Notes under the pieces: generated by a model
The model's input: the letters and a program-made list of their open reading frames with translations, nothing else
Database searches by the model: none
Told to the model about the DNA's origin: nothing
In this document: piece by piece, positions 10,337 to 55,727 of the stretch
How the letters are laid out: each line of letters opens with the position of its first letter
Numbering within the stretch: position 1 is the stretch's first letter
Source of the DNA: Acidobacteriota bacterium
GTDB taxonomy: Bacteria; Acidobacteriota; Vicinamibacteria; Vicinamibacterales; CAVVIG01
DNA: 64,000 nt
Assembly: GCA_040007095.1 (NCBI GenBank)
Contig: JBDTVS010000058.1
Span: 15,719-79,718 of the forward strand
Direction of reading: 5' to 3'
Translations under genes and position numbers: made by a program

Positions 10337-10629
10337 AGCGTCTTGAAGTCGCCCTCGTACACCTTCGCCGTGATCTCGTCGCCCACTTTCACCGTGGTCA
10401 CAACGTCGTCCTTGTCGGCGGTGTAGGTCATCGTCATCGCCGACATCCAACCCTGCACATTCTCACCATTCACGGTGAGAGTCTTCGTTTTCGCGTCGAT
10501 CTTCTCGACCTTGCCGCGGAACGGGAATGATTTTCCCTTCGGCTGGGCATGCGCCACGCTCACCAGCAGGAGCACGCTCAGCGCCGCTCCAAGCCAAGCC
10601 GCCAATCGAGTACGCTGCGATCCGCTCAT
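10282..10629 (-). CDS. CusF-like periplasmic copper-binding protein
   Basis: 115 aa. Signal peptide (..LLLVSVAHA/QP) and a 'GKVEKID...LTVNGENVQGWMSAMTMTY' Met/Trp motif typical of the CusF family. Confidence 0.75.
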   Translation of the reverse strand: MSGSQRTRLAAWLGAALSVLLLVSVAHAQPKGKSFPFRGKVEKIDAKTKTLTVNGENVQGWMSAMTMTYTADKDDVVTTVKVGDEITAKVYEGDFKTLYEVQVVPPKSKAPPAKK

Positions 10630-44868: not shown

Positions 44869-45621
44869 ATGCACGCCATTGCGCGATTGTGGTTCGCCAG
44901 TTTCCTCGTATTTACCTGTGCATCGTGTGCCGGCAATTCCGCCGCTGCGCCCACGGCATCGCCGACGCCCACGACTACAACGACCGTCCGCACCACAACG
45001 ACTGTGCCCGCCACGACGACTGTGCCAGCCCCGGTCCCAACGCCTGCACCGACGTCGCCCGGCCCGCTCGCCCTCAGCAGGAGTCTCTGGCAGACAATCA
45101 GCACGCCGCAGAATTTTCCGCTGGCCAACGACGCCAGCGGCAGCTTGACGTTCGACTTCCCGTCGGCGCCCAGCTCGATGGGTTACGTGTACAGCACGCG
45201 CCCTCCCAGCACGATCTCCGGCCGAGTCGTGGTGTCGCTGCAGGTGACGACGACGGGCGCGCCGGTGTTCAACTACGCGGCGCCCGACAACACGTGCGTG
45301 GTGCCCGCGAAGGTGCGACCGTTTTTCTGGGCGCACCAGAACTCGTTTGCAGAGTTCGACCGGTGGTGGGCCAACCCGATTGCCTACCAACTGGCGGGCG
45401 GATCCACGACGATCATCGTGCCGCTCGTCCCGGAACAGTGGTCGAGCGTGAACGGCAAGTTCGGCAATGCCGATGCGGGCGCGCTTGCCGGGTTCCAGGC
45501 CGCGATCAAGTCCGTCAGCAGCCTCGGCCTGACGTTCGGCGGCGGCTGCTTCTTCGGACACGGCGTCGACGTGTCCGGCGGGACTGCCAGATTCGTGCTG
45601 TCAGGCTATAGCCTGGAGTGA
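44869..45621 (+). CDS. Lipoprotein with a Thr/Pro-rich linker, function unknown
   Basis: 250 aa. Lipobox-like 'FLVFTCASCAG', a PT-rich linker (TPTTTTTVRTTTTVPATTTVPAPVPTPAPT), then a globular domain. Confidence 0.6.
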   Translation: MHAIARLWFASFLVFTCASCAGNSAAAPTASPTPTTTTTVRTTTTVPATTTVPAPVPTPAPTSPGPLALSRSLWQTISTPQNFPLANDASGSLTFDFPSAPSSMGYVYSTRPPSTISGRVVVSLQVTTTGAPVFNYAAPDNTCVVPAKVRPFFWAHQNSFAEFDRWWANPIAYQLAGGSTTIIVPLVPEQWSSVNGKFGNADAGALAGFQAAIKSVSSLGLTFGGGCFFGHGVDVSGGTARFVLSGYSLE

Positions 45622-45834
45622 CCAAGTGCGGCTACTGGACTCCCGGCGCCCTGCCGCGGGGGAAGCGCTGCGGCCCACGTTTCACAACAAATTTCTCGGC
45701 AGACGCCTATTCATTTCCTCAGGGAACGGCCAAGCGGCTCTTTGGTACATTGACGTCTTTAAGGCGTTGTTCTTGAGACAGACGCGTGCTACCATGTCGC
45801 CCTAAATCGTCCTAAGCCAAGCTGAGCCTGACTT

Positions 45835-46782
45835 ATGAACTACTTGCTCGACGACGTGGCCAAGATCCTGGCGAAACCGGCGCTGCCGCGGCGGGAGACG
45901 TTCCGTCTCCTTGGTGGCGTACTGGCGGCAGCCTTTGCGAGCCGCTTCGGCATTCAGCCCGTCGCTGCGACGGGATACGGATGCTCGCACCAGCAAACGG
46001 CGGCAGGGATGTTCGATTGCGGAATTGGCAGCGCCCATCAGGCCTGCTGTCCGCCTGGGACGTGCTGTGCGTCCCATGGCAATGTGGCGACGTGCTGCCC
46101 CAGGGGTTCGTGCATCTGCGGCAACGGGTTGTGCGGGTCGTCGACCGGAGGGAATTGTCCGAGCGGGTGCAGCCGCTGTGAAGAAGGTCATCACGACGAT
46201 CAGGATCATTCCGGCGATCATCAGGACGATCACCAGAACGATCCTCACGACAACCATCAGAACGATCCGCACGATAATCACCAGAACGATCCTCACAACA
46301 ACCAACAGAACAATCAACAAAACAACCAGCAGAACAATTCGCACAACAACCAGCAGAACGACCCTCGCAACAACCAACAAAACGATTCTCACAACAGTCA
46401 ACAGAACACTCAGCAGAGTGATCCTCACGACAACCACCCGGATCTGCACCAGGAGCCATCCAAGGACGTCCGCAAGGATGCGCCGAGCGACCTGCACCAA
46501 GATCCGCCCAAGGATGTCCGTCAGGACTCCTACAAGGATGTCCGCAAGGATTCACCCAACGACGTACGCAAGGATCCGCCAAAGGATGTGACATCCAACG
46601 ATCTGCACAAGGATCCGCCTAAGGATGCGCGCCAGGACCCCTACAAGGATCTCCGCAAGGATTCATTCAGCGACAGGCGCAAGGACTCACCCAAGGATGC
46701 GCACCAGGATTCATCCAAGAATGTTCGCAAAGATGCGCCCAAGGACGGCAACGACCACAAGGATGATCAAGGGCGTCATTAG
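45835..46782 (+). CDS. Probable Tat-exported Cys-rich protein with an extreme His/Asp/Asn/Gln and KD-rich repetitive tail
   Basis: 315 aa. 'PRRETFRLLGGVLAAAFA' is Tat-signal-like. A 17-Cys module follows (..CCPPGTCCASHGNVATCCPRGSCICGNGLCG..CPSGCSRC). Then DNHQNDPH-type and KDVRKD(S/P)P-type repeats. Confidence 0.6.
   Translation: MNYLLDDVAKILAKPALPRRETFRLLGGVLAAAFASRFGIQPVAATGYGCSHQQTAAGMFDCGIGSAHQACCPPGTCCASHGNVATCCPRGSCICGNGLCGSSTGGNCPSGCSRCEEGHHDDQDHSGDHQDDHQNDPHDNHQNDPHDNHQNDPHNNQQNNQQNNQQNNSHNNQQNDPRNNQQNDSHNSQQNTQQSDPHDNHPDLHQEPSKDVRKDAPSDLHQDPPKDVRQDSYKDVRKDSPNDVRKDPPKDVTSNDLHKDPPKDARQDPYKDLRKDSFSDRRKDSPKDAHQDSSKNVRKDAPKDGNDHKDDQGRH
46190..46760. repeat. Degenerate in-frame coding tandem repeats (~24-bp units) within the low-complexity protein gene
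   Basis: caccagaacgatcctcacgacaac-type units come first, then aaggatgtccgcaaggattcaccc-type units. The region is visibly AT-richer than its surroundings. Confidence 0.7.
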
Positions 46783-46840
46783 TGGCGCACTGTTCGTCCT
46801 CCGTCTGAAAAGACGTGCTGGGTGCTAAGCTGAGGCCCTC

Positions 46841-49561
46841 ATGGGGCGCTCCGCGCTACTACTTGGCCTGCTGACACTTGCCGTCGGGTACGCCGTTGTC
46901 ACCCATGGTGGCGACGTACCCGACGATTCGTACAGGTCCCTCCTGTTCGTCGGCCTGACCGCCATCGTCGGTGCCCTGACCGTATTCCGCGTCAAACTCT
47001 TTTCAACACCCGAGCGCACCCTCGACATCGCGATCTTTGCTTTTCCCGTCTATGTCGCCTTCCAGCTCGTGCCTCTCCCGTTGGCCTTGCTGCATGTCGT
47101 ATCCCCTGTTCGCGCCGAAGTTACAGAGGCCCTAGGGGGCGTTATGGCGCTCCCGCGTTTTGCACCGCTAACGATCTCACCTGCCACCACGTGGGTGTAT
47201 CTGTCGCGGATTACCGGCTACGCCCTCATCTTTCTTCTCGTGCGTCAGATCGCCCGCAGGTCCAGGTTCAGCGTCTGGACGCCAGCCATCCCCTTGATAG
47301 TCATCGGAGCATTGGAGACGGCGTGGGCGCTGACGTTATCCCAGGTAGAAGGCACGCCGTTCGCCGGCACGTATCAAAGCAGGAACCATTTCGCGGGCCT
47401 GCTCGAGATGATCCTGCCGTTTGCGCTCGCGTACGGCTTCGCTCTTCTTTCTCGTGACCACCGTCGAAGCAGCCTCCCCGGTGTGGCGATCGTCGGTGCG
47501 TTCGTCCTCTTCGCAGCCGCGGCCGCAATGTTCGTCGCCATCACGCTGTCTGTCTCCAAGATGGGACTGTTCTCCTCGCTCGGATCGCTGTTCGTGATGG
47601 GCATCCTGGGAATGCAATGGCGGCCTTCCAAGGGACCCCGGTGGCCGGTGGTCGCGGGACTTGTCGTGCTCGGCCTTTGCGCCATCGTCTTCCTGACGCC
47701 CACCAAGTTCGTGGAGCAGTTCGGAGCAGTCCTTTCGGATCGGACGACGGAGGGACGGCTACCGATTGCGAAAGACACGCTGCGGCTGTTCGCGGCCTAC
47801 CCGATCTTCGGCTGCGGCCTCGGCGCTTTCTATCCGGGGCTGACGCGTTACCAGGTCTCGGGGTTGCACGTCGCCTGGGTGAACGCGCACAACGACTACC
47901 TGCAGCTCCTCTCGGAACTGGGCGTCATCGGATTCCTGATTCCGGCCGTGCTCGTCTGCACCGTGTTCACCCGCAGTGTGCTCACGGCTCTCTCGAGAAG
48001 CGCGTCGGAGACGTGGGAACCCGGTTCCGTCGACCACCGCGAAAGGCGGTTCCTCGGCCTGGGCTGTGCGGGTGGCCTCACGGCGATTCTGATTCACAGC
48101 GCCGGCGACTACAACACCTACGTCCTGTCCAATGCGATGGTGTTGGCGTGGATCATGGGAATCGCGGCAAGCCTTTCTCCCGTCAAGAGGCTCCGTACGC
48201 AACACTCGAGCCTTTCAGCCGCTCTCCTCTCCAGCATTCCCAATGTTCTCCGAGGCGGCGCGCGGGATCCTCGCCGCGTGCCGATCGAGGCCGCTGGTTT
48301 CGGCAGCCGGATTTCTCTAACAGGTTCGTCGCTCGTGCTTGCTCTTGGCGCCATCTTGAGCCTGTATGCAGGGGGCTGGTTGGTGTTCCTCAACTCCTTT
48401 CACGACGACTTGTCGGCTGAACAAAAGTTCTGCCGGTTCGGAATCTGCGACACCGACGCCGCCGTGGCCGTCATACAACGCGAGCACGGCCGCCGCTCCG
48501 ACGAGACGCTGAAAGCCGCTCGATTCCTCGAATACCTGGCGCGCGATCCGGCGTCGCCTTCCCGTTGGGACGATGTGGGCGAGTCGATGCAGAAGGGGGA
48601 CCGAACACTGGCGGCACGCTACAGCTTTGCCAGGTCGGTCGCGCTCGGTCCAAATTCGCCGGCGACGTTGCTGATGGCGGCCGACTTTCACTTCGACATC
48701 GGGGAGACCCGCACCGCGTTCGATTTTCTGTCGCGCACTCTGCGGGTTGGCAGCGACGAGATCGCCAAAGTGGTTGCTATCGATCTCGAGTTCAGAAAGA
48801 TCCCCGTGGGCGAGGCACTGCGCGCGGTCTCGCCAACCCGGAGGTTTTCGCGCATCTATTGGGAGGAACTAAGCAGCGCGGAAACGGATGCGCCGGAGAA
48901 GACGGCCACTCTCTGGGAATGGATGGTGTCACGCGGATACGGTGACGACCAACTGGCGTGCAAGCACACCAACTTCTTGCTGGGTGCCAACCGTCCGGGA
49001 CTCGCCTGGCAGTCCTGGGCGCTCTACGCCGGCGAGCGAAGCAAGGGATATCCGGACACAAATCGGATCTTCAACGGGGACTTCGAATCGGATCCGACTG
49101 GTTGCAGGTTCGACTGGACGATCCAGCCAACGGGCGGAGCGGCGATCGAGTTCGATCGCAGCGTAGCGTATTCAGGCGGGCGTTCGCTGCGGGTTCAGTT
49201 CGACGGGACGGCGAACCCGAGCGACGTGGGAATGGAAGAGGAGGTCGGTCTCGAACCCGGGAGATATCGATTGAGCGGTTACATTCGAACGAAGGAGCTG
49301 TCGACCGACGAGGGAGTGTTTCTCGGCGTTGTCAACGCGGACAAGCGAGCGCCGATCAACGCGGTGACCGAGACATTGCGCGGCACGAATGGGTGGACCC
49401 GGGTCGAAAGCGTGTTCGACGCGCCGTCGGAGGGGGGACTGGTTAGAGTGCTCCTAACTCGAAAGCCCTCGCTGAAGTTCGACAGTTTGCTTCAAGGCAC
49501 GGCCTGGCTTGACCGAGTGAGCATTAGGCCTCAGGGGTTGGAACCGACCACGAAAGAGTGA
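46841..49561 (+). CDS. O-antigen ligase (Wzy_C) family polytopic membrane protein fused to a helical-repeat region and a C-terminal CBM4_9-like carbohydrate-binding domain
   Basis: 906 aa with about 12 TM helices and 'WVNAHNDYLQLLSELGVIGF' (Wzy_C motif). The C-terminal 'NGDFESDP.....W.......IEFD.....SGGRSLRVQFDG' is typical of a CBM/galactose-binding-like fold. Confidence 0.8.
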   Translation: MGRSALLLGLLTLAVGYAVVTHGGDVPDDSYRSLLFVGLTAIVGALTVFRVKLFSTPERTLDIAIFAFPVYVAFQLVPLPLALLHVVSPVRAEVTEALGGVMALPRFAPLTISPATTWVYLSRITGYALIFLLVRQIARRSRFSVWTPAIPLIVIGALETAWALTLSQVEGTPFAGTYQSRNHFAGLLEMILPFALAYGFALLSRDHRRSSLPGVAIVGAFVLFAAAAAMFVAITLSVSKMGLFSSLGSLFVMGILGMQWRPSKGPRWPVVAGLVVLGLCAIVFLTPTKFVEQFGAVLSDRTTEGRLPIAKDTLRLFAAYPIFGCGLGAFYPGLTRYQVSGLHVAWVNAHNDYLQLLSELGVIGFLIPAVLVCTVFTRSVLTALSRSASETWEPGSVDHRERRFLGLGCAGGLTAILIHSAGDYNTYVLSNAMVLAWIMGIAASLSPVKRLRTQHSSLSAALLSSIPNVLRGGARDPRRVPIEAAGFGSRISLTGSSLVLALGAILSLYAGGWLVFLNSFHDDLSAEQKFCRFGICDTDAAVAVIQREHGRRSDETLKAARFLEYLARDPASPSRWDDVGESMQKGDRTLAARYSFARSVALGPNSPATLLMAADFHFDIGETRTAFDFLSRTLRVGSDEIAKVVAIDLEFRKIPVGEALRAVSPTRRFSRIYWEELSSAETDAPEKTATLWEWMVSRGYGDDQLACKHTNFLLGANRPGLAWQSWALYAGERSKGYPDTNRIFNGDFESDPTGCRFDWTIQPTGGAAIEFDRSVAYSGGRSLRVQFDGTANPSDVGMEEEVGLEPGRYRLSGYIRTKELSTDEGVFLGVVNADKRAPINAVTETLRGTNGWTRVESVFDAPSEGGLVRVLLTRKPSLKFDSLLQGTAWLDRVSIRPQGLEPTTKE

Positions 49562-49753: not shown

Positions 49754-50686
49754 GTGATGCTGAGTCTAGTCATTCCTGTCTTCAAGAATGAGCGCTCGAT
49801 TCCGGACTTGGTCGAGGCAGTGGGAGAACTTGCCCGCTGTCTGCCTGGCGGTTTCGAGGCGATATTCGTAGACGACGGTGGGCCTGATCGAAGCCGCCAA
49901 CTGCTGGCAAATCTGCTTCCAAGCGCTGGATTTCGAGCGCGGCTCGTCATGCTCTCACGAAACTTCGGGTCGTTCGCGGCAATTCGAGCTGGTCTTGCCG
50001 AGGGTTCCGGTGACTATTTCGCCGTCATGTCTGCAGACCTCCAAGAACCGACGACGATCGTAACTGAGTTCTTGAGGTTGCTTGAAGGGCAAATGCACGA
50101 CGTCGTCGTGGGAACCAGGGAGCAGCGAGTCGATCCGCTGTTGAGCCGGGTGGCATCGAGCTTGTTCTGGCGGATTTACCGGCTCGCGGTTCAACGCGAC
50201 GTGCCCGCGGGTGGTGTCGATGTCTTCGGCTGCACGCGGGCATTTCGAGACGAAGTTCTCGCGCTATCGGAGAGAAATTCGACGCTCGTTGGCCTCATCT
50301 TCTGGTTGGGCTGTCGCCGAGCAGAGATTAAATATTCTCGATTGCCTCGGCGCCACGGCGTAAGTGCGTGGTCCTTTTGGCGAAAGGTACGCTACCTCCT
50401 CGACAGCACGTTCGCCTTTTCCGACCTGCCAATCCGCCTTCTGAGTCTGGCAGGGATATCCGGGATGGGGGTGTCACTGCTTCTTGCGGCGGTCGTCCTT
50501 GCGGCAAGAATCAGGGGCAACGTCCAAGTACCAGGTTACACCGCAACAGTCCTTGTTGTGATGTTCTTCGGCGGACTCAACTCGTTCGGGATCGGTGTCC
50601 TCGGCGAGTACCTTTGGCGGACGTTCGAAAATACGAAGCGTCGACCGGATTATGTCGTGCTCAAAACTGAGAATTACGGAGCATAG
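49754..50686 (+). CDS. Family 2 glycosyltransferase (polyprenyl-phosphate sugar transferase type, GtrB/ArnC-like)
   Basis: 310 aa. 'LSLVIPVFKNE', 'FVDDGGPD', 'RNFGSFAAIRAGL' and 'MSADLQEP', plus two C-terminal TM helices. Confidence 0.85.
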   Translation: MMLSLVIPVFKNERSIPDLVEAVGELARCLPGGFEAIFVDDGGPDRSRQLLANLLPSAGFRARLVMLSRNFGSFAAIRAGLAEGSGDYFAVMSADLQEPTTIVTEFLRLLEGQMHDVVVGTREQRVDPLLSRVASSLFWRIYRLAVQRDVPAGGVDVFGCTRAFRDEVLALSERNSTLVGLIFWLGCRRAEIKYSRLPRRHGVSAWSFWRKVRYLLDSTFAFSDLPIRLLSLAGISGMGVSLLLAAVVLAARIRGNVQVPGYTATVLVVMFFGGLNSFGIGVLGEYLWRTFENTKRRPDYVVLKTENYGA

Positions 50687-50689
50687 ATC

Positions 50690-51676
50690 ATGACGCTTGA
50701 ACGGACGTCCGGTGGCTGGTTCCGGCATCCGGCTGCAATTGTCGAGTCATCACAAATCGGGGAGCGAACGCGCGTATGGGCGTTCGCCCATGTGTTGCCC
50801 GGCGCACGGGTCGGCGCCGACTGCAACATTTGCGACCACGTGTTCGTAGAGAACGAAGTAATAGTGGGCGACCGTGTCACCGTCAAATGTGGTGTGCAGT
50901 TATGGGACGGAGTAACGATTGAGGACGACGTCTTTATTGGCCCAAACGCCACTTTCACGAATGATATCTTCCCTCGCAGTCGGATTCAGCAGAAGAGGCC
51001 TACGCCCACTGTCTTGCGACGTGGTGCTTCGATCGGTGCCAATGCAACTGTCGTTTGTGGCGTGACTATTGGGGCGAACGCAATGGTTGGCTCGGGTGCG
51101 GTAGTTACGCACAATGTCCCGGCTAATGCCATCGTCGTTGGCAATCCCGCGTTCATCCATGGCTACGTTGCCGTTGAGAAGGGGGTTCAGGCGCCAGAGA
51201 CGGCGCTTCCTGTCGAACCTTTCCAGACGCTTGCCGTCGGGGGCGTTACGATGTACCGATTGCCGGAGTTCGCTGACCTTCGGGGCGGCTTGGTAGTAGG
51301 GGAAATCGGCAAGCAGCTGCCGTTTGAGCCGAAGCGTTTCTTTGTGGTACACGCCGTCCCTACCCGCCAAGCACGCGGCGAGCATGCACACCGAAACATT
51401 CACCAGTTTATTGTGTGCCTACACGGCGAATGCTCCGTTGTCATCGACGACGGGTTCGCACGCCAAGAAATTCGGCTATCCGAGTTGTGTGTCGGCGTCC
51501 ACGTCCCGCCCATGGTGTGGGCGGTCCAGTACAAGTTCTCGCCGGATGCACTGGTTCTTGTCTTGGCGTCGGGCATTTACGACGCTGCGGAGTACGTCCG
51601 CGATTACGACGAGTTTATCGCACTTGCCACTGATAGCCGAGTAAGGGGGATGGAGAATACAGATTCTGCCCGATGA
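50690..51676 (+). CDS. WxcM-like bifunctional protein: N-terminal hexapeptide-repeat acetyltransferase plus C-terminal FdtA-type sugar 3,4-ketoisomerase (cupin)
   Basis: 328 aa. LbH repeats (..IGERTRVWAFAHVLPGARVGADCNICDHVFVENEVIVGDRVTV..). The C-terminal 'DLRGGL.V.E....LPFEPKRFF.V..VP....RGEHAH' is the FdtA/WxcM C-terminal pattern. Confidence 0.8.
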   Translation: MTLERTSGGWFRHPAAIVESSQIGERTRVWAFAHVLPGARVGADCNICDHVFVENEVIVGDRVTVKCGVQLWDGVTIEDDVFIGPNATFTNDIFPRSRIQQKRPTPTVLRRGASIGANATVVCGVTIGANAMVGSGAVVTHNVPANAIVVGNPAFIHGYVAVEKGVQAPETALPVEPFQTLAVGGVTMYRLPEFADLRGGLVVGEIGKQLPFEPKRFFVVHAVPTRQARGEHAHRNIHQFIVCLHGECSVVIDDGFARQEIRLSELCVGVHVPPMVWAVQYKFSPDALVLVLASGIYDAAEYVRDYDEFIALATDSRVRGMENTDSAR

Positions 51677-51758
51677 GACGCAGGAATTCCGGATCAGACT
51701 GAAGACGAGAGCGCTCGCCGGGGCCTCACCGTTCCTCGCGATCGAGCAGGCATAGCAG

Positions 51759-53324
51759 CTACGGGGGTGGGCGGATCGCGGTGGGAACCTTGTGGGGCCA
51801 ATGTGAATAGAGCTCGTAGCGCCGTGGCTTGGTCGGCACGCGGGAGAGGAATGCGGCCTGTGCCGACGGCAGCGTGAACTGATCGATGAGATGCCAACCC
51901 AGAGCGGCAAAGAACTCGCGGCGGTTCGTGGACTCACCCTCATTGACGAGCGCGTAGTCGAGGTCGGCGAACATGGCGGCCTCCGCGTCGGAGCCGATAT
52001 ACCCGTAAGGGCGCACCATCCTCCAGCCGAATTGCCGACCGACGTAGTAGAACTCCCATGGCTCGAGATAAATCCGCTGAAAACGGAGTTCAGGCAGGCG
52101 CGCCGCGGCTTCTACGAGTAACTCGGGACTACGGGCGTGCCGAGCGGCGAGCGCCAACGCCGGCCGAGCGACCAGTGAGATGCCCCCGGCCCAGACAACC
52201 GCAATGGCCATGACGGCCGCGCCCCACGAGCGTAACCAGGAGACTGCCGCCACGCGCCAGCCCTCCCCTATCAGACCGATCAGGTACGGCAAGAGGTACA
52301 CGACACGGTGGACATACACATGAGTCGGGAGGATCGAAATGGTAGCAACGGCGGCGGAGATGGCAAGGACCCGGTTTCTACGGTTAAAGGCCGCGGCCAC
52401 TGCTGCGATCGGTAGACACGGGCTCTGCTCGTAGGAAAGCACTAAATTCAAGACAGAGGCGGGGAAGTAGGTCCAGGGGCTCCCGGAGTCGGAATTGGCC
52501 TGCTTCGAGACGAGGGCGTCTGCCGCCAGTGAGGGGAGTTGATTCCAAACGGGGACCAGGCACAGCGCGAGGCTGATCAGCCCTCCGGCCGCGAAGGCCA
52601 AGCACCACCGCAGCATTGTTCGCTTCGGAACACGCAGCGGGGCGCACACTAGAATCCCCTCCGCGGCGACGAGAGGAAGTAAGAAGATCCCGGATGGCCA
52701 GACGAAACAGGCCACCACCAACAAACCGCCAAGCACAGCCCAACATCGCGAGACACCGCCACTGTCTACCGAGGTGATTTGCCTGCGCCTCAGTACGACG
52801 CAGGCCGCCATTACCAGCGCGATGACAAAGCAGTCGACGCGTCCACCGCGATAGCCTTGCACAAAGATCGGATCGAGGAATAAAGTTACGGCAAGGACCA
52901 GTGCCGGGACGATCCGGACGCGCCGAGAGCGTAGCCATAGGAAAGTGAAGTACCCCGCGACAAGAGCGCCCAGCAGGGTCGATAGCCGCGGTCCAACATT
53001 GGACGGGGCGAGCCAGCGGTACGCGCGCTCCTGTAGGATCGGTCCGAGGTAATTGACGAAGGCTACAGGACGCTGCTTGGCGGTCCAGTTGAGGGACCAC
53101 GTCGGATCGGGTGCGACGACGCTTCGGCCGAGATCCACAATCTGCACTTCATCCTGCCAGATCGTCGGCGAGATCGTGATCGTCAAGAGATGAACGGAAG
53201 CCAAGAGGGCGAGCGTCACTATCGGCAGCCAGGGGCGCCGATTGAGCGTGAGCGTGCCGACTCGGTACAGTCGGACGATCAGCCCGGGTGGTTGGTCTGG
53301 CGTCGGAAGCCGGTGCCGCCGCAT
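51759..53324 (-). CDS. Polytopic membrane protein, putative GT-C-fold (ArnT/PMT-like) glycosyltransferase
   Basis: 521 aa with about 11-12 TM helices. An acidic 'WQDEVQ' motif follows the first helix. The ~130-aa C-terminal domain is soluble. Confidence 0.5.
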   Translation of the reverse strand: MRRHRLPTPDQPPGLIVRLYRVGTLTLNRRPWLPIVTLALLASVHLLTITISPTIWQDEVQIVDLGRSVVAPDPTWSLNWTAKQRPVAFVNYLGPILQERAYRWLAPSNVGPRLSTLLGALVAGYFTFLWLRSRRVRIVPALVLAVTLFLDPIFVQGYRGGRVDCFVIALVMAACVVLRRRQITSVDSGGVSRCWAVLGGLLVVACFVWPSGIFLLPLVAAEGILVCAPLRVPKRTMLRWCLAFAAGGLISLALCLVPVWNQLPSLAADALVSKQANSDSGSPWTYFPASVLNLVLSYEQSPCLPIAAVAAAFNRRNRVLAISAAVATISILPTHVYVHRVVYLLPYLIGLIGEGWRVAAVSWLRSWGAAVMAIAVVWAGGISLVARPALALAARHARSPELLVEAAARLPELRFQRIYLEPWEFYYVGRQFGWRMVRPYGYIGSDAEAAMFADLDYALVNEGESTNRREFFAALGWHLIDQFTLPSAQAAFLSRVPTKPRRYELYSHWPHKVPTAIRPPP

Positions 53325-53580
53325 TTTATCCGATAGAGGTGACCGTCCAAGGCCCAGGACCTGCTGTCAAGTACTGAACCGGTAGACTGTCACAGTCTCT
53401 CATGAAGAGATCCATTCGATCGGTTCGGATTGGCAAGCATTGTTCGGAACCGATCGAGCCACTGAATCTGGGCGGCGAAATATAGTTCTTGCGGAATGCC
53501 AAGGCAAGGTCGTCCTTTCGTATCCCCGTTCACAAGGACGAGAACTGCGGTCCTGAAAAGCCAATCACCTCTGAATGGTG

Positions 53581-54153
53581 TCATCGTTCAGACTTCACTC
53601 GGAAACCGAGGGAGGCGTTTAGAAAACCGAACCATTCGTGCGTGACCGCCATCGCATCTGTCCTATTGCGCCACCAGCGTTCGGGCTCAAATGGATCGTC
53701 AGGAGTGAAGCGAACGACCGCTTGGGCGTCGCCCCCGACAAGGCTGTGCCATAGTGCCCTCACGCGTCGAGTGTGATACTTCGACGTGACCAGGATGACG
53801 CGGTCATCAGCCGGATGCAGCTCGCTGGCGATGGCTCGGAGCTCGTCAACCGTGTTCACGGGTCGCTGCGGGAGCACGCGAATGTCGTTGCCAGGTACGC
53901 CAAGGCGCTCGATCACCTGACGGCTATAGTCGGCTTCGAACGGTCGAACGATTCCCAGGCGCATCAGCGCCAAGTCTTCCTTGGAGGGCACCGCGCCCTG
54001 AGTCAACCATATTTCCTTCGTCCAGCCCTGGCGATATATGCGTGCGGCCTCCATAGCACGGAACGGCAAATGGCCACCCAACACGACCACTGCCCGGGCC
54101 GGTTGAAGCGGATCCTCGATCACAAGCCATGTGCCGGCACTCTTCAACGCCAA
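53581..54153 (-). CDS. DUF218 (YdcF/ElyC/SanA) family protein; start codon uncertain
   Basis: 190 aa from a TTG start. 'VVVLGG', '..IWLTQG..' and '..ILVTSKYHTRR..' are DUF218 motifs. An in-frame TM helix is encoded upstream of the first ATG/GTG/TTG. Confidence 0.8.
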   Translation of the reverse strand: MALKSAGTWLVIEDPLQPARAVVVLGGHLPFRAMEAARIYRQGWTKEIWLTQGAVPSKEDLALMRLGIVRPFEADYSRQVIERLGVPGNDIRVLPQRPVNTVDELRAIASELHPADDRVILVTSKYHTRRVRALWHSLVGGDAQAVVRFTPDDPFEPERWWRNRTDAMAVTHEWFGFLNASLGFRVKSER

Positions 54154-54269
54154 CAGCGCCAGCGTTAGTACAACGGCCAGCGAAACGATCGAAACCGCCA
54201 GTCGGCCGCGGAACGCCCTAACCCGGGCCAGCGGCGTACCGGCTGATTCGTTGAAACATTGAAAACAAT

Positions 54270-55727
54270 CTAAAACACCGCGACTGGAGTCGTAGCGGCA
54301 GCGAGGGCCAGGACTGCTTCTGCGCCTACACCCACATCGGAAGCCACCCTGCCTGCCTCGTCCAGGATGACGGCCGACGGCGTACCCCCGGCGCCAAACC
54401 GCGCACCCACGCTGAAGGCCGAATCGAGCAAGACGCGCGAGCGGAAGCCTTGTTCGCGGTTCGCCTTCGGAGAGCCGGCGGAGATCACGACCAGTTCCGG
54501 CGCATCCTCCGGACGATTCGTCTCCCAGACTTTCACTTTGTCCAGCATCCCCGCGCAGAACCCGCAGGACGGATTCCAGAACAGCAGCAGCGTCCGATGC
54601 CCCAGGATAGTCGCAAGATCGAACGTTCCGCCATTGAGATCCCGAACCGGCAGGAAAGGCACACGTTCGCCCTTCATTAGCGTTGGTGGCCCGGTCGCAT
54701 CCTTGACGAGGGCGCGAATGGCCTCGGCGCCGACAGCCAGCGGCCTTGCGATTGCACCATCGATTACGAGCACGGCACTCGGAGTGATCTCAGCGCGATA
54801 CGATTCAGCAACCTCGCGATTCAGTTGAAGCAGAATGTTCTGGACCTTGTGGGTCCTGCCCTTCGCGCGATTCACGTCGGCCTTGCCTTGGCTGATTGGG
54901 ACGACCACCAGACGCTCGGCGTGCTCTCTCTGCCAGCGTCCGACGTCCGGAAGAATCGCATCGCACGCGCCGCAACCCGGCTCGCTGAAGAACAGCAGAA
55001 CCCCTTTACCACTCTCACTCAGCGCTTGGAGCGTTACGGTCTCGCCGTCAAGACCGGTCAAGCTGAAACGGGGAGCCGCGCTCCTGGCTGGAAGCCCGGC
55101 CACCTGGGGCTGCTCCGCGGTCGGGACAACGCCCAGCTTCACCTCGATCGCGTCGAGGCGCTCAAGCGTTCGGCCATTCTGGCGAAGCACGTGATACAGG
55201 GTGAAAGCACCGACAATCCCTTGTGCCACGACAACCAGCGCAAGGACAATAGCTGCAGTCCCCGCCCGGCTGAAAGCATCGAAAGTCCGGCCGAAGCCGG
55301 ACTCCATGTAGGCAGTATCTGCGTAGGCCTGGCTCCGCCAAAGGACGAGAGCGGCAACGCCCGCGAGGGCGAAATTTCGAAATAGGGTGGGCCAGCCAAC
55401 CGGCGACGAATGTAGCTGCCCGAAACAGCGGCAATTGGGCCTTCGTCCTCGAATCATGCTGACGGAGATGGCCGCGACGAATAAGACTAACAACCCGAGG
55501 GCGCCGCTCGCCCCCAACCAAGCCCAGCCGGCGGAAACCAACCCCGCCGCGCAGGCCAATTCTGCGAGCGGCAGTAGGAGCGCAAACGCCGTAGTCAAAA
55601 AGGCCGGCACACCGAATTCGCCTACAGACTTCCGGGAACCCGACGGATCCGAAAGCTTGGCCACACCCGCCACAGTAAACACGGCGGCGAGCAGCAAACG
55701 CGCAACTAACAGAAATGTATCGAACAA
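54270..55727 (-). CDS. MauE/DoxX-like membrane domain fused to two thioredoxin-fold (TlpA/redoxin-like) domains
   Basis: 485 aa. Four N-terminal TM helices resemble the MauE pattern (..AGVAKL.DP...). Two redox motifs: 'FFSEPGCGACD' and 'LFWNPSCGFCA'. Confidence 0.8.
   Translation of the reverse strand: MFDTFLLVARLLLAAVFTVAGVAKLSDPSGSRKSVGEFGVPAFLTTAFALLLPLAELACAAGLVSAGWAWLGASGALGLLVLFVAAISVSMIRGRRPNCRCFGQLHSSPVGWPTLFRNFALAGVAALVLWRSQAYADTAYMESGFGRTFDAFSRAGTAAIVLALVVVAQGIVGAFTLYHVLRQNGRTLERLDAIEVKLGVVPTAEQPQVAGLPARSAAPRFSLTGLDGETVTLQALSESGKGVLLFFSEPGCGACDAILPDVGRWQREHAERLVVVPISQGKADVNRAKGRTHKVQNILLQLNREVAESYRAEITPSAVLVIDGAIARPLAVGAEAIRALVKDATGPPTLMKGERVPFLPVRDLNGGTFDLATILGHRTLLLFWNPSCGFCAGMLDKVKVWETNRPEDAPELVVISAGSPKANREQGFRSRVLLDSAFSVGARFGAGGTPSAVILDEAGRVASDVGVGAEAVLALAAATTPVAVF

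What the first reader, a model, noticed from the sequence alone, without database searches (positions are those of the whole stretch)
45835..46782. Tat-signal, 17-cysteine module fused to an extreme His/Asp/Asn/Gln and Lys/Asp repetitive tail
After a twin-arginine-like signal (PRRETFRLLGGVLAAAFA) comes a compact Cys-rich module (..CCPPGTCCASHGNVATCCPRGSCICGNGLCGSSTGGNCPSGCSRC..). About 200 aa follow that are composed almost only of H, D, N, Q, P, K, S and R, in degenerate 8-residue repeats (DNHQNDPH..., then KDVRKDSP/KDPPKD...). The DNA is clearly AT-richer than its neighbours and internally repetitive. The composition suggests a periplasmic or extracellular metal-binding (His/Asp) or mineral/polysaccharide-associated intrinsically disordered protein at the edge of the polysaccharide locus. 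I know of no characterised homologue.
Basis: partly seen in the sequence, partly recalled or inferred. Interest (0 to 1): 0.6.

Follow-up and report, generated by a model that had tools for sequence, protein, structure and literature searches.

The report
Exported disulfide mini-protein with repeat tail
This soil-bacterium gene encodes a small exported, disulfide-knotted protein from an undescribed family that sits beside a disulfide-forming enzyme and a sugar-chain ligase, and this copy alone has grown a 200-residue disordered His/Asp/Asn/Gln and Lys/Asp repeat tail of unknown function.

Summary
The ORF (45835-46782, +, 315 aa) is real. It has 14 cysteines, not 17. The tail (res 116-315) is 87% D/N/Q/H/P/K/S/R, in a strict 8-residue register.

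Residues 1-115 are not an orphan. They belong to an unannotated family, seen so far mainly in Acidobacteriota MAGs and metagenomes. The family has a highly conserved twin-arginine-type leader (MxxLxDDVARILAxPMPRRKAFRLLGG...) and a hypervariable Cys-rich domain. Of 106 members, 98 have an even Cys count (mode 14), which implies an all-disulfide fold.

The gene is syntenic with two partners:
- a Wzy_C-TPR-CBM4_9 "O-antigen-ligase-like" protein directly downstream (12 of 17 loci);
- a MauE/redoxin oxidoreductase (12 of 17 loci).

Both partners are in the window (46841-49561; 54270-55727).

The closest relatives (60-65% identity) stop right after the last Cys. The tail has no homologue anywhere searched, so it is a lineage-specific in-frame repeat expansion, predicted to be disordered.

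Best reading: a Tat-exported protein, oxidatively folded by MauE-Trx, that partners the adjacent glycan ligase and may be its acceptor. The tail would be a hydrophilic, possibly cation-binding extension. Function is inferred, not shown.

The parts
45835..46782 (+). Whole ORF, 315 aa plus stop: leader, Cys-rich domain and repeat tail
   Evidence: The ATG start is conserved (MNYL...) in relatives L031, L035 and L037.
45835..45972 (+). Conserved twin-arginine-type leader (res 1-46): n-region MNYLLDDVAKILAKPALP, then RR-E-T-F-R-L, a Gly/Ala-rich h-region, and ...PVAA
   Evidence: Alignment A2 has D6, R19 and R20 invariant in 32 sequences. Neither a Pfam nor an NCBIfam Tat-signal model scored. Three TatC genes are present in the genome.
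45973..46179 (+). Cys-rich domain (res 47-115) with 14 Cys in the pattern C-C-CC-CC-CC-C-C-C-C-C-C. Predicted to be a disulfide-stapled stack of beta-hairpins.
   Evidence: AF2 pLDDT is 71-84 over res 48-120. The Cys count is even in 98 of 106 family members.
46180..46452 (+). Tail part A (res 116-206): a His/Asp-rich stretch followed by an Asn/Gln-rich stretch, built of 24-nt (8-aa) units of the type NDPHDNHQ / NNQQNNQQ. pI 4.8; 15 His, 18 Asp+Glu, 42 Asn+Gln.
46453..46779 (+). Tail part B (res 207-315): a Lys/Asp/Arg/Pro/Ser polyampholyte built of 8-aa units of the type (P/S)KDVRKD(S/P), including a 111-nt unit present 1.9 times. 27 K+R against 27 D+E.
46841..49561 (+). Syntenic partner 1: a 906-aa Wzy_C (O-antigen-ligase-type) membrane protein with a TPR-like region and a C-terminal CBM4_9-like domain. 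It starts 59 nt downstream of the ORF.
   Evidence: Pfam Wzy_C, E = 4e-19. Homologues carry precomputed TPR and CBM_4_9 hits. A homologue lies directly downstream of the leader gene in 12 of 17 loci.
54270..55727 (-). Syntenic partner 2: a MauE/DoxX membrane domain (CXC motif NCRCFG) fused to two redoxin domains (CGAC, CGFC)
   Evidence: Pfam and translation. A homologue lies adjacent to the leader gene in 12 of 17 loci. In G006 the three genes are contiguous.

Best explanation
SHOWN:
- The ORF belongs to an unannotated protein family, found so far mainly in Acidobacteriota MAGs and metagenomes.
- The family consists of a strongly conserved twin-arginine-type N-terminal leader followed by a hypervariable cysteine-rich domain with an even number of Cys (here 14, so 7 disulfides).
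- The gene travels with a MauE-thioredoxin oxidoreductase and, in most loci, sits immediately upstream of a Wzy_C-TPR-CBM4_9 protein inside polysaccharide loci.
- The 200-residue tail is absent from every relative found. It begins exactly where the closest relatives have their stop codon, and it is built of degenerate 24-nt units in one register.

INFERRED mechanism:
- The precursor is exported to the periplasm by the Tat route.
- Its leader is cut after the AxA-like site near residue 45.
- The Cys domain is oxidatively folded by the dedicated MauE (DsbB-like) plus thioredoxin-fold module, in the way MauE/MauD mature the six-disulfide small subunit of methylamine dehydrogenase.
- The folded knot then acts together with the neighbouring Wzy_C enzyme. 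Most likely it is a cognate protein acceptor or adaptor, by analogy with the pilin/ComP genes that lie directly upstream of the Wzy_C O-oligosaccharyltransferases TfpO, TfpM and PglS.
- The tail arose by loss or bypass of the ancestral stop and in-frame tandem expansion. It is an intrinsically disordered, very hydrophilic extension.
- Its first third (15 His and 18 Asp/Glu in 91 aa) could bind divalent cations. Its last half is a charge-balanced Lys/Asp polyampholyte.
For: Family:
- Exhaustive HMMER found 43 representatives. The best were 62% identical, 114 aa.
- A profile search gave 70 more, none with any Pfam domain or name.
- The leader is conserved, with D6, R19 and R20 invariant.

Taxon:
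- Related loci come from Terriglobia/Acidobacteria MAGs.

Disulfides:
- 98 of 106 members have an even Cys count, p = 4e-21, mode 14.
- AF2 gives a beta-hairpin stack with pLDDT 71-84.

Synteny:
- A Wzy_C(-TPR-CBM) gene lies directly downstream in 12 of 17 independent loci. A MauE/redoxin gene is present in 12 of 17.
- In G006 the three genes form one contiguous same-strand run.
- Among 61 relatives, the Wzy906 type occurs only in the two genomes that also have the close Cys gene.

MauE role:
- MauE complements DsbB and uses a CXC site (preprint 10.64898/2026.03.05.709764). The window protein has NCRCFG plus two CXXC motifs.

Tat:
- RR-x-#-#-K/R is followed by a Gly/Ala-rich h-region. TatC is present three times in the genome.

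Tail origin:
- P0044, P0001, P0045 and L031 end at ...CPSGCxxC(x)*.
- In L031 a 169-nt spacer with a terminator-like hairpin lies where the window has the tail.
- The tail has no homologue among 5.8 billion proteins and no paralogue in its own genome.

Coding frame:
- Differences among repeat copies peak at codon position 3: 179 against 103 and 94.
- Identical NDPHDNHQ units differ only by synonymous changes.

Disorder:
- AF2 pLDDT is 37-47 with no secondary structure over res 116-315. GRAVY is -2.56.

Acceptor idea:
- All known O-OTases carry Wzy_C, and their cognate acceptors lie immediately upstream (PMC9829042).
- The only conserved non-Cys feature of the variable domain is a Ser motif near the C-terminus, C-x-[ASP]-S. 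It occurs in 63 of 104 members against 33 expected from shuffles.
Against: - No experiment, transcript or read data were available. Export route, cleavage, disulfides and any link to the ligase are all inferences.
- The Tat-signal HMMs (PF10518, TIGR01409) did not score.
- The highly conserved n-region before RR is unusual for a Tat signal and is unexplained.
- Wzy_C-type TPR-CBM proteins occur in 41 of 401 genomes of the phylum. In 29 loci checked they have no leader gene within 1.5 kb. So the ligase does not need this protein.
- Five family loci lack a Wzy906 homologue nearby.
- The close subfamily does not end in Ser/Thr, so TfpO/TfpM-style C-terminal glycosylation does not fit.
- In the window, MauE-Trx is 7.5 kb away on the other strand.
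- The two 111-nt copies differ by 5 synonymous and 11 non-synonymous codons, so constraint on the tail is weak at best.
- Low stop counts in the tail (1 in two + frames and 2-4 in three others; only one minus frame has many, 22) follow from the T-poor composition.
Confidence: 0.6

Rival explanations
1. Periplasmic metal-binding or metal-buffering protein. The His/Asp-rich start of the tail, and perhaps the Cys domain, would chelate Zn, Ni or Cu, and that would be the protein's main job.
For: - Residues 116-206 hold 15 His and 18 Asp/Glu, in HxxH/HDxH-like spacing.
- Short His/Asp-rich segments flank the Cys domain in several homologues: P0057 HEHDHDH...PDHDDDDDDDD, P0066/P0074 GHEHDDD, P0017 DNEHHDH, P0005, P0009.
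- Redoxin/TlpA-type proteins can also act as reductants that keep metal-site cysteines reduced (established knowledge).
Against: - Even Cys parity in 98 of 106 members, and the MauE (DsbB-like) partner, argue for disulfides rather than thiolate metal sites.
- AF2 predicts a folded hairpin stack.
- No metal transporter, sensor or efflux gene was seen among the neighbours.
- More than half of the tail (the Asn/Gln and Lys/Asp parts) is not a typical metal ligand set.
- This idea does not explain the synteny with Wzy_C.
- It can coexist with the main explanation as a function of the tail alone.
Confidence: 0.2
2. The tail is evolutionary noise or an error. Either it is a very recent, essentially neutral read-through and repeat expansion with no function of its own, or it is a sequencing or assembly mistake that removed the true stop codon after Cys115.
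For: - The tail is found nowhere else.
- All close relatives stop after the last Cys.
- The 111-nt copies show roughly neutral change: 5 synonymous against 11 non-synonymous codons.
- Asp codons in the tail are GAT-biased (28 GAT to 14 GAC), against the local preference (98 to 147, p = 0.002). This reflects inherited GATC-containing repeat units.
- Few or no stops across most frames of the tail are expected from composition alone.
- The genome is a 243-contig MAG.
Against: - No 21-mer is repeated in the tail, so short-read assembly is unambiguous.
- One reading frame is kept for 600 nt, continuous with a conserved gene.
- Differences between copies peak at third codon positions, and some identical peptide units differ only synonymously.
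- Short tails of similar composition recur in homologues.
- N, H, Q and K codons in the tail follow or exceed the local C/G-ending preference.
Confidence: 0.25
3. A secreted, disulfide-rich antimicrobial or competition peptide (defensin or conotoxin logic: conserved leader, hypervariable Cys-rich mature part) with its own oxidative-folding enzyme. The Wzy_C neighbour would be incidental.
For: - The leader is conserved while the mature domain is hypervariable in length (about 50-300 aa) and in sequence.
- A dedicated MauE-Trx partner is present.
- Distribution is patchy: 4 of 401 genomes in the phylum sample, 2 of 61 relatives.
Against: - No immunity gene, ABC exporter or outer-membrane secretion gene is conserved beside it.
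- A Tat leader delivers the protein only to the periplasm of a diderm cell.
- Synteny with Wzy_C-TPR-CBM in 12 of 17 loci is too regular to be incidental.
- There was no structural match to known toxins or defensins. The best Foldseek E-value was about 3.
Confidence: 0.08
4. The real genes are the opposite-strand ORFs 45802-46500 or 45833-46594.
For: These frames are open for 232 and 253 aa.
Against: - They run antisense to a coding region whose + strand product is conserved in more than 100 proteins.
- They translate to V/L/I/R or R/C/D low-complexity strings.
- Their openness follows from the G+T-rich minus strand, which is poor in A.
- Variation among repeat copies peaks at + frame position 3, which is position 1 of the matching minus frame.
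Confidence: 0.02

Closest known systems
MauA / MauE / MauD (small subunit of methylamine dehydrogenase and its maturation factors)
   Same: - A small protein with a twin-arginine-type leader and many structural disulfides.
- It is encoded together with a MauE membrane protein and a thioredoxin-fold (MauD/redoxin) protein needed for its disulfides. Here these two are fused into one polypeptide.
- The MauE CXC motif is present.
   Different: - There is no sequence relationship to MauA. The PDB profile hit 3c75_L has E = 0.58, which is chance level, and Pfam gives nothing.
- There are no mau genes, no large subunit and no TTQ context.
- The partner here is a glycan ligase, not a dehydrogenase.
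- The mature domain is hypervariable.
Acceptor/O-oligosaccharyltransferase gene pairs: PilA-TfpO(PilO), pilin-TfpM, ComP-PglS
   Same: - A small exported, disulfide-containing protein is encoded immediately upstream of a Wzy_C-domain enzyme (PMC9829042).
- A conserved Ser-containing motif lies next to a Cys near the C-terminus.
- The Wzy_C 'AHNDYL..L.E.G' histidine motif is present in the 906-aa protein (sequence).
   Different: - The protein is not a pilin. It has no prepilin leader or N-terminal hydrophobic helix.
- The enzyme is twice as long and carries TPR and CBM4_9 domains.
- It scores far below the cut-offs of the TfpM model (20 bits against 600) and the PEP_O_lig_1 model (21 against 188).
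- The close subfamily does not end in Ser/Thr.
- Glycosylation is untested.
Eukaryotic-type disulfide-stapled hairpin modules (granulin, furin-like/R-spondin Fu repeats, TNFR and EGF Cys-rich domains)
   Same: - CC-doublet pattern C-C-CC-CC-CC...
- A predicted stack of beta-hairpins.
   Different: - There is no significant sequence or fold match. Granulin-5 has E = 1.5, and the best Foldseek E-value is 2.9 with TM below 0.2.
- Pfam Granulin is not hit.
His-rich metal-binding disordered segments (for example the ZnuA loop, the HypB/UreE/SlyD tails, Hpn) and hydrophilin/LEA-type polyampholyte repeats
   Same: - Composition: His/Asp-rich runs in the first part of the tail.
- Extreme hydrophilicity and short tandem repeats in the rest.
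   Different: - There is no homology.
- Gly content is 2%, below the hydrophilin criterion of more than 6% (my own knowledge of that definition).
- Metal binding and desiccation roles are untested.

Membership tests
Twin-arginine (Tat) signal peptides (PF10518 / TIGR01409) | S/T-R-R-x-F-L-K-like motif followed by a mildly hydrophobic h-region and an AxA-type cleavage site | tested here: met
   - The window has P-R-R-E-T-F-R-L. The family consensus P-R-R-K-A-F-R-L fits RR-x-#-#-K/R.
- The h-region LLGGVLAAAFASRFG is Gly/Ala-rich, and ...PVAA precedes the first Cys.
- R19 and R20 are invariant in 32 sequences.
Twin-arginine (Tat) signal peptides (PF10518 / TIGR01409) | Match to the curated Tat-signal profile HMMs | tested here: not met
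   No hit at E <= 1 in Pfam or at E <= 0.1 in NCBIfam, for the window protein and four homologues. These models are short and often miss true signals.
Twin-arginine (Tat) signal peptides (PF10518 / TIGR01409) | Tat translocase present in the organism, and export that depends on it | tested here: inconclusive
   Three TatC genes lie above the Pfam cut-off in G000. Whether export depends on Tat cannot be tested with these tools.
Methylamine dehydrogenase light chain (MauA) | Sequence homology to MauA | tested here: not met
   No Pfam hit. The profile against PDB chain 3c75_L gives E = 0.58.
MauE/MauD-type dedicated oxidative-folding clients (functional analogy) | Encoded with a MauE protein (CXC motif) and a thioredoxin-fold CXXC protein | tested here: met
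   - Window 54270-55727 holds MauE plus two redoxin domains, with NCRCFG, CGAC and CGFC.
- A homologue is present in 12 of 17 family loci.
MauE/MauD-type dedicated oxidative-folding clients (functional analogy) | All cysteines paired in structural disulfides | tested here: met
   This is indirect evidence. The Cys count is even in 98 of 106 members, p = 4e-21. The bonds themselves have not been observed.
Cognate acceptors of Wzy_C O-oligosaccharyltransferases (PilA/TfpO, pilin/TfpM, ComP/PglS) | Acceptor gene immediately upstream of a Wzy_C-domain gene | tested here: met
   The gap is 59 nt in the window. The same arrangement is seen in 12 of 17 loci.
Cognate acceptors of Wzy_C O-oligosaccharyltransferases (PilA/TfpO, pilin/TfpM, ComP/PglS) | Acceptor is a type IV pilin-like protein | tested here: not met
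   There is no pilin or N-methylation domain hit, and the leader is RR-type.
Cognate acceptors of Wzy_C O-oligosaccharyltransferases (PilA/TfpO, pilin/TfpM, ComP/PglS) | Ser/Thr of the acceptor carries an Und-PP-derived glycan | not testable with these tools
   The only lead is a conserved C-x-[ASP]-S motif, found in 63 of 104 members against 33 expected.
Granulin (PF00396) and metallothioneins | Profile match, or for metallothionein thiolate-cluster Cys patterns with no parity constraint | tested here: not met
   No Pfam hit. Granulin-5 gives E = 1.5. Even Cys parity argues against free thiolates.
Intrinsically disordered tandem-repeat region (descriptive class) | Low-complexity polar composition, significant short-period repeats and no predicted structure | tested here: met
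   - 87% of the residues come from eight polar residue types, and GRAVY is -2.56.
- Lag-8 identity is 0.427 against 0.109 +/- 0.022 in shuffles.
- AF2 pLDDT is 37-47 with no secondary structure.

The most novel reading that the evidence does not exclude
The leader/Cys-knot family would be the dedicated protein acceptor, or priming adaptor, of a TPR- and CBM-bearing Wzy_C ligase. Acidobacteriota would then build a disulfide-knotted 'proteoglycan' in the periplasm or on the cell surface. MauE-Trx would fold the knot first, and the ligase would then attach the locus-encoded polysaccharide at the conserved Ser motif. In this genome the acceptor would additionally have evolved, de novo from repeat expansion, a 200-residue cation-binding polyampholyte tail that changes the properties of the matrix.
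Probability: 0.25. Interest if true: 0.8.

Novelty: new variant of a known kind. Interest (0 to 1): 0.55.

Why it matters
[quoted passage not shown] This family would be a concrete, testable client class.
- **A possible new protein acceptor or adaptor for Wzy_C enzymes.** The steady pairing with a long Wzy_C-TPR-CBM enzyme in polysaccharide loci of abundant soil bacteria suggests an undescribed protein partner for O-antigen-ligase-type enzymes. That is relevant to protein glycosylation and to extracellular matrix biology in Acidobacteriota.
- **An example of a disordered domain born by in-frame repeat expansion.** The tail begins exactly at the ancestral stop codon of a conserved gene.
- **Caveat.** The tail alone, without the family context, is a lineage-specific curiosity of uncertain function.

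Tried and rejected
**Searches that found nothing or failed**
- Word-indexed protein search with residues 1-125 found nothing. Its length filter follows the 315-aa parent (173-551 aa), while the relatives are 90-200 aa. The exhaustive HMMER search found them instead.
- The search for related loci with alignments A2 and A3 failed because no stretch was conserved enough.
- The single window protein in genome contigs found nothing.
- The G006 orthologue used as query found three Acidobacteria/Terriglobia MAG loci.
- The tail alone against 5.8 billion proteins gave no hit.
- The exact protein is not in the collection.
- Pfam and NCBIfam gave no family. There was only a 19-bit low-complexity hit to MAP_0585, against a cut-off of 170 bits, and I rejected it.
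- Sequence search of the PDB gave chance-level hits only. Foldseek against the PDB gave nothing below E = 2.9.
- Literature searches for the gene combination found nothing relevant.

**Ideas I rejected**
- Opposite-strand ORFs as the real genes.
- Metallothionein-like thiolate binding, because of the even Cys parity.
- Membership of MauA or granulin.
- TfpO/TfpM-type C-terminal glycosylation for the close subfamily, because its C-termini are not Ser/Thr.

**Other checks**
- I looked for a conserved upstream motif shared by the Cys gene and the Wzy gene (CTAAGCTGAG). It is not conserved in other loci.
- The upstream 250-aa Thr/Pro-rich protein is not conserved beside family members.
Full report
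**Observation**

ORF 45835-46782 (+) encodes 315 aa. It has 14 cysteines, all between residues 50 and 115.

Residues 116-315 are D42, N26, Q25, H20, P18, K17, S15 and R11, which is 87% of the 200 residues. GC falls to 0.52-0.57 over 46050-46800, against 0.61-0.68 on either side, with a strong A-over-T skew.

Tandem Repeats Finder reports a 24-nt unit in 8 copies (46215-46407) and a 111-nt unit in 1.9 copies (46488-46699). Laid out eight codons per line, the whole tail keeps a single 8-residue register. The units are NDPHDNHQ and NNQQNNQQ types, then (P/S)KDVRKD(S/P) types. Lag-8 residue identity is 0.427, against 0.109 +/- 0.022 in shuffles. The observation therefore stands, apart from the Cys count.

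**Is the sequence and the frame credible?**

- The longest exact internal repeat is 20 nt and no 21-mer recurs, so a short-read assembler had no ambiguity here.
- Low stop counts in the tail (1 stop in two + frames and 2-4 in three others; only one minus frame has many, 22) are expected from the T-poor + strand. Openness alone proves little.
- The tail is nevertheless continuous with a gene whose product is conserved elsewhere.
- Differences among repeat copies peak at codon position 3 of this frame: 179 against 103 and 94 in part A, and 75 against 40 and 24 in part B1.
- Adjacent NDPHDNHQ units differ only synonymously.
- Constraint is weak. The two 111-nt copies differ by 5 synonymous and 11 non-synonymous codons.
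- The minus-strand ORFs are antisense to conserved coding sequence and are rejected.

**The N-terminal 115 residues are a family**

Pfam and NCBIfam give nothing meaningful. An exhaustive HMMER search of 1.84 billion representatives found 43 relatives. The best was 62% identical and 114 aa long. A profile search of the 5.8-billion collection added 70 more, all unnamed and without Pfam domains.

The alignment shows a strikingly conserved leader: M-x-x-L-x-D-D-V-A-R-I-L-A-x-P-M-P-R-R-K-A-F-R-L-L-G-G-x-L-A-G-A..., ending in an AxA-like site. D6, R19 and R20 are invariant. A hypervariable Cys-rich region of about 50-300 aa follows.

The RR-x-#-#-K/R motif and the Gly/Ala-rich h-region fit a Tat signal, and the genome has three TatC genes. 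The Tat profile HMMs do not score, and the conserved segment before RR is unusual and unexplained.

Related loci with named records are Terriglobia/Acidobacteria MAGs.

**The Cys domain is most likely all-disulfide**

- Of 106 family members, 98 have an even number of Cys after the leader (p = 4e-21). The commonest number is 14, as here.
- AlphaFold2 with a 23-sequence alignment gives a stack of beta-hairpins at pLDDT 71-84 for residues 48-120.
- Foldseek finds no PDB relative. The best E-value is 2.9, and the nearest shapes are furin-like, TNFR and EGF Cys-rich repeats.
- Sequence search of the PDB gives only chance-level hits.

**Gene neighbourhood**

I examined 17 independent loci that carry a family member: the window, G006, G269 (two loci), G272, G055, three MAG records and eight metagenome contigs.

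- A homologue of the window's 906-aa Wzy_C protein lies directly downstream in 12 loci. It is either fused Wzy_C-TPR-CBM4_9 of about 850-900 aa, or split into TPR-CBM plus Wzy_C.
- A MauE-redoxin or redoxin gene is present in 12 loci.
- Eight loci show both.
- Several of the loci lacking one partner are short contigs.
- In G006 the order Cys gene, Wzy_C gene, MauE-Trx gene is contiguous on one strand.
- In the window the Wzy_C gene starts 59 nt after the ORF (46841-49561). The MauE-Trx gene (54270-55727, minus strand) lies 7.5 kb further on, beyond glycosyltransferase and WxcM-like genes.
- Among 61 relatives, a Wzy906-type protein (E <= 1e-30) occurs only in G000 and G006. These are the same two genomes that have the close Cys gene.
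- The dependence runs one way. TPR-CBM homologues occur in 41 of 401 genomes of the phylum, and none of the 29 loci examined has a leader gene within 1.5 kb.

**What the partners suggest**

A 2026 preprint shows that MauE can replace DsbB, uses a CXC active site and is fused to thioredoxin-fold domains in about 8% of entries. The window protein has NCRCFG in the MauE part and two CXXC redoxin domains. This mirrors MauE/MauD, which are needed for the six disulfides of the twin-arginine-exported small subunit of methylamine dehydrogenase. The simplest reading is that this Cys-rich family is the client of a dedicated oxidative-folding module.

For the Wzy_C partner, all known bacterial O-linking oligosaccharyltransferases carry Wzy_C, and their cognate acceptors (pilins, ComP) are encoded immediately upstream (PMC9829042). 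Within the otherwise hypervariable domain, the one recurring non-Cys feature is a Ser motif next to a Cys near the C-terminus:

- CxASxGGxCPxGC in the close subfamily;
- ...KPSxSxPC or ...CSSS in others.

The motif occurs in 63 of 104 members, against 33 expected.

This makes an acceptor or adaptor role plausible, but it is inference. The protein is not a pilin. The enzyme scores far below the TfpM and PEP_O_lig_1 cut-offs. The close subfamily does not end in Ser/Thr.

**The tail**

- The closest relatives end at ...CPSGCxxC(x)*. They are P0044 (65%), L031 (64%, whose Wzy_C neighbour is 68% identical), P0001 (62%) and P0045 (59-60%).
- In L031 the stop is followed by a 169-nt spacer with a terminator-like hairpin before the Wzy_C gene. 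In the window the same interval holds 600 nt of in-frame repeats followed by a 59-nt spacer, and the last ~20-25 nt of that spacer, just before the Wzy_C start codon, resembles the 3' end of the L031 spacer.
- The tail has no homologue in the protein collection and no paralogue in its own genome.
- No other family member has more than 33 residues after its last Cys.
- The tail is therefore a lineage-specific extension created by loss or bypass of the stop codon and tandem expansion.
- It has three zones. Zone 1 is His/Asp-rich (about res 116-154) and zone 2 is Asn/Gln-rich (to about res 206); residues 116-206 together have pI 4.8, with 15 His. Zone 3 is a charge-balanced Lys/Arg-Asp polyampholyte (27 basic against 27 acidic residues) with Pro and Ser.
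- AF2 gives pLDDT 37-47 and no secondary structure for the tail.
- Short segments of the same flavour flank the Cys domain in several homologues: HEHDHDH, GHEHDDD, DNEHHDH, PDHDDDDDDDD, GEKERDGQDGDE. The window's tail thus looks like an extreme elaboration of a recurring theme, which gives some support to a role such as cation binding or electrostatic interaction with the polysaccharide.
- Asp codons in the tail are GAT-biased, against the local preference. GATC is three times enriched (24.9 per kb against 7.8 per kb). Both reflect inheritance of the repeat unit.

**Verdict**

The feature is real and its description is largely right. The N-terminal module is a member of a new, unannotated family. 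That family has a clear genomic logic: an exported, disulfide-knotted client of MauE-Trx that partners a Wzy_C-TPR-CBM enzyme. The tail is unique to this genome, disordered and of unproven function.

My confidence by claim is as follows.
- High for family membership, the synteny and the lineage-specific origin of the tail.
- Moderate for Tat export and MauE-dependent folding.
- Low to moderate (about 0.25-0.3) for a role as glycan acceptor.
- About 0.2 for metal binding as the main function.
- About 0.25 for the tail being neutral or artefactual.

Noticed in passing
window 44869-45621 (+): A 250-aa protein directly upstream has a lipoprotein-like N-terminus (..FLVFTCASC..) and a Thr/Pro-rich mucin-like linker (PTPTTTTTVRTTTTVPATTTVPAPVPTPAPTSP). 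It has no Pfam family and is not conserved next to family members in other loci.
   Followed up: partly
window 46180-46782: GATC sites are about three times enriched in the tail: 15 in 603 nt (24.9 per kb) against 7.8 per kb in the whole window. The cause is that the repeat unit carries GATC(C). Asp is therefore encoded mostly by GAT, against the local codon preference.
   Followed up: partly
L031 5349-5516 (metagenome contig Ga0157379_10002942): In the closest relative, the spacer between the Cys gene and the Wzy_C gene holds a terminator-like hairpin (CCCCAAGCG...CGCTTGGGG followed by TTTCT). The window has no equivalent, because the repeat tail occupies this interval.
   Followed up: no
window 49754-54270, compared with L026 (G006:C2): In G006 the Cys gene, the Wzy_C gene and the MauE-Trx gene are contiguous. 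In the window, GT2, WxcM/FdtA-like, 521-aa and 190-aa ORFs lie between the Wzy_C gene and MauE-Trx, and MauE-Trx is on the other strand. This suggests an insertion or rearrangement of the lower-GC glycan block.
   Followed up: partly
L026 about 10597 (G006:C2): The G006 MauE-Trx homologue aligns as two tblastn pieces that abut at 10597/10598. This may be a frameshift or only a local alignment break.
   Followed up: no
P0031, P0020, P0098 (family hits): A few proteins carry the same conserved leader on a non-Cys-rich body. P0031 has a DsbA-like ...GTPTFYINGV... fragment and no Cys at all. The leader may serve more cargo types, or these may be chimeric or truncated gene calls.
   Followed up: no
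G000 contigs C156, C30, C70: The genome encodes three TatC paralogues, all above the Pfam cut-off.
   Followed up: no
leader, window 45835-45890: The segment before the twin arginines (MxxLxDDVARILAxP, with an invariant Asp at position 6) is as conserved as the RR motif itself. This is unusual for signal peptides. It may be a docking site for a dedicated chaperone or partner.
   Followed up: no
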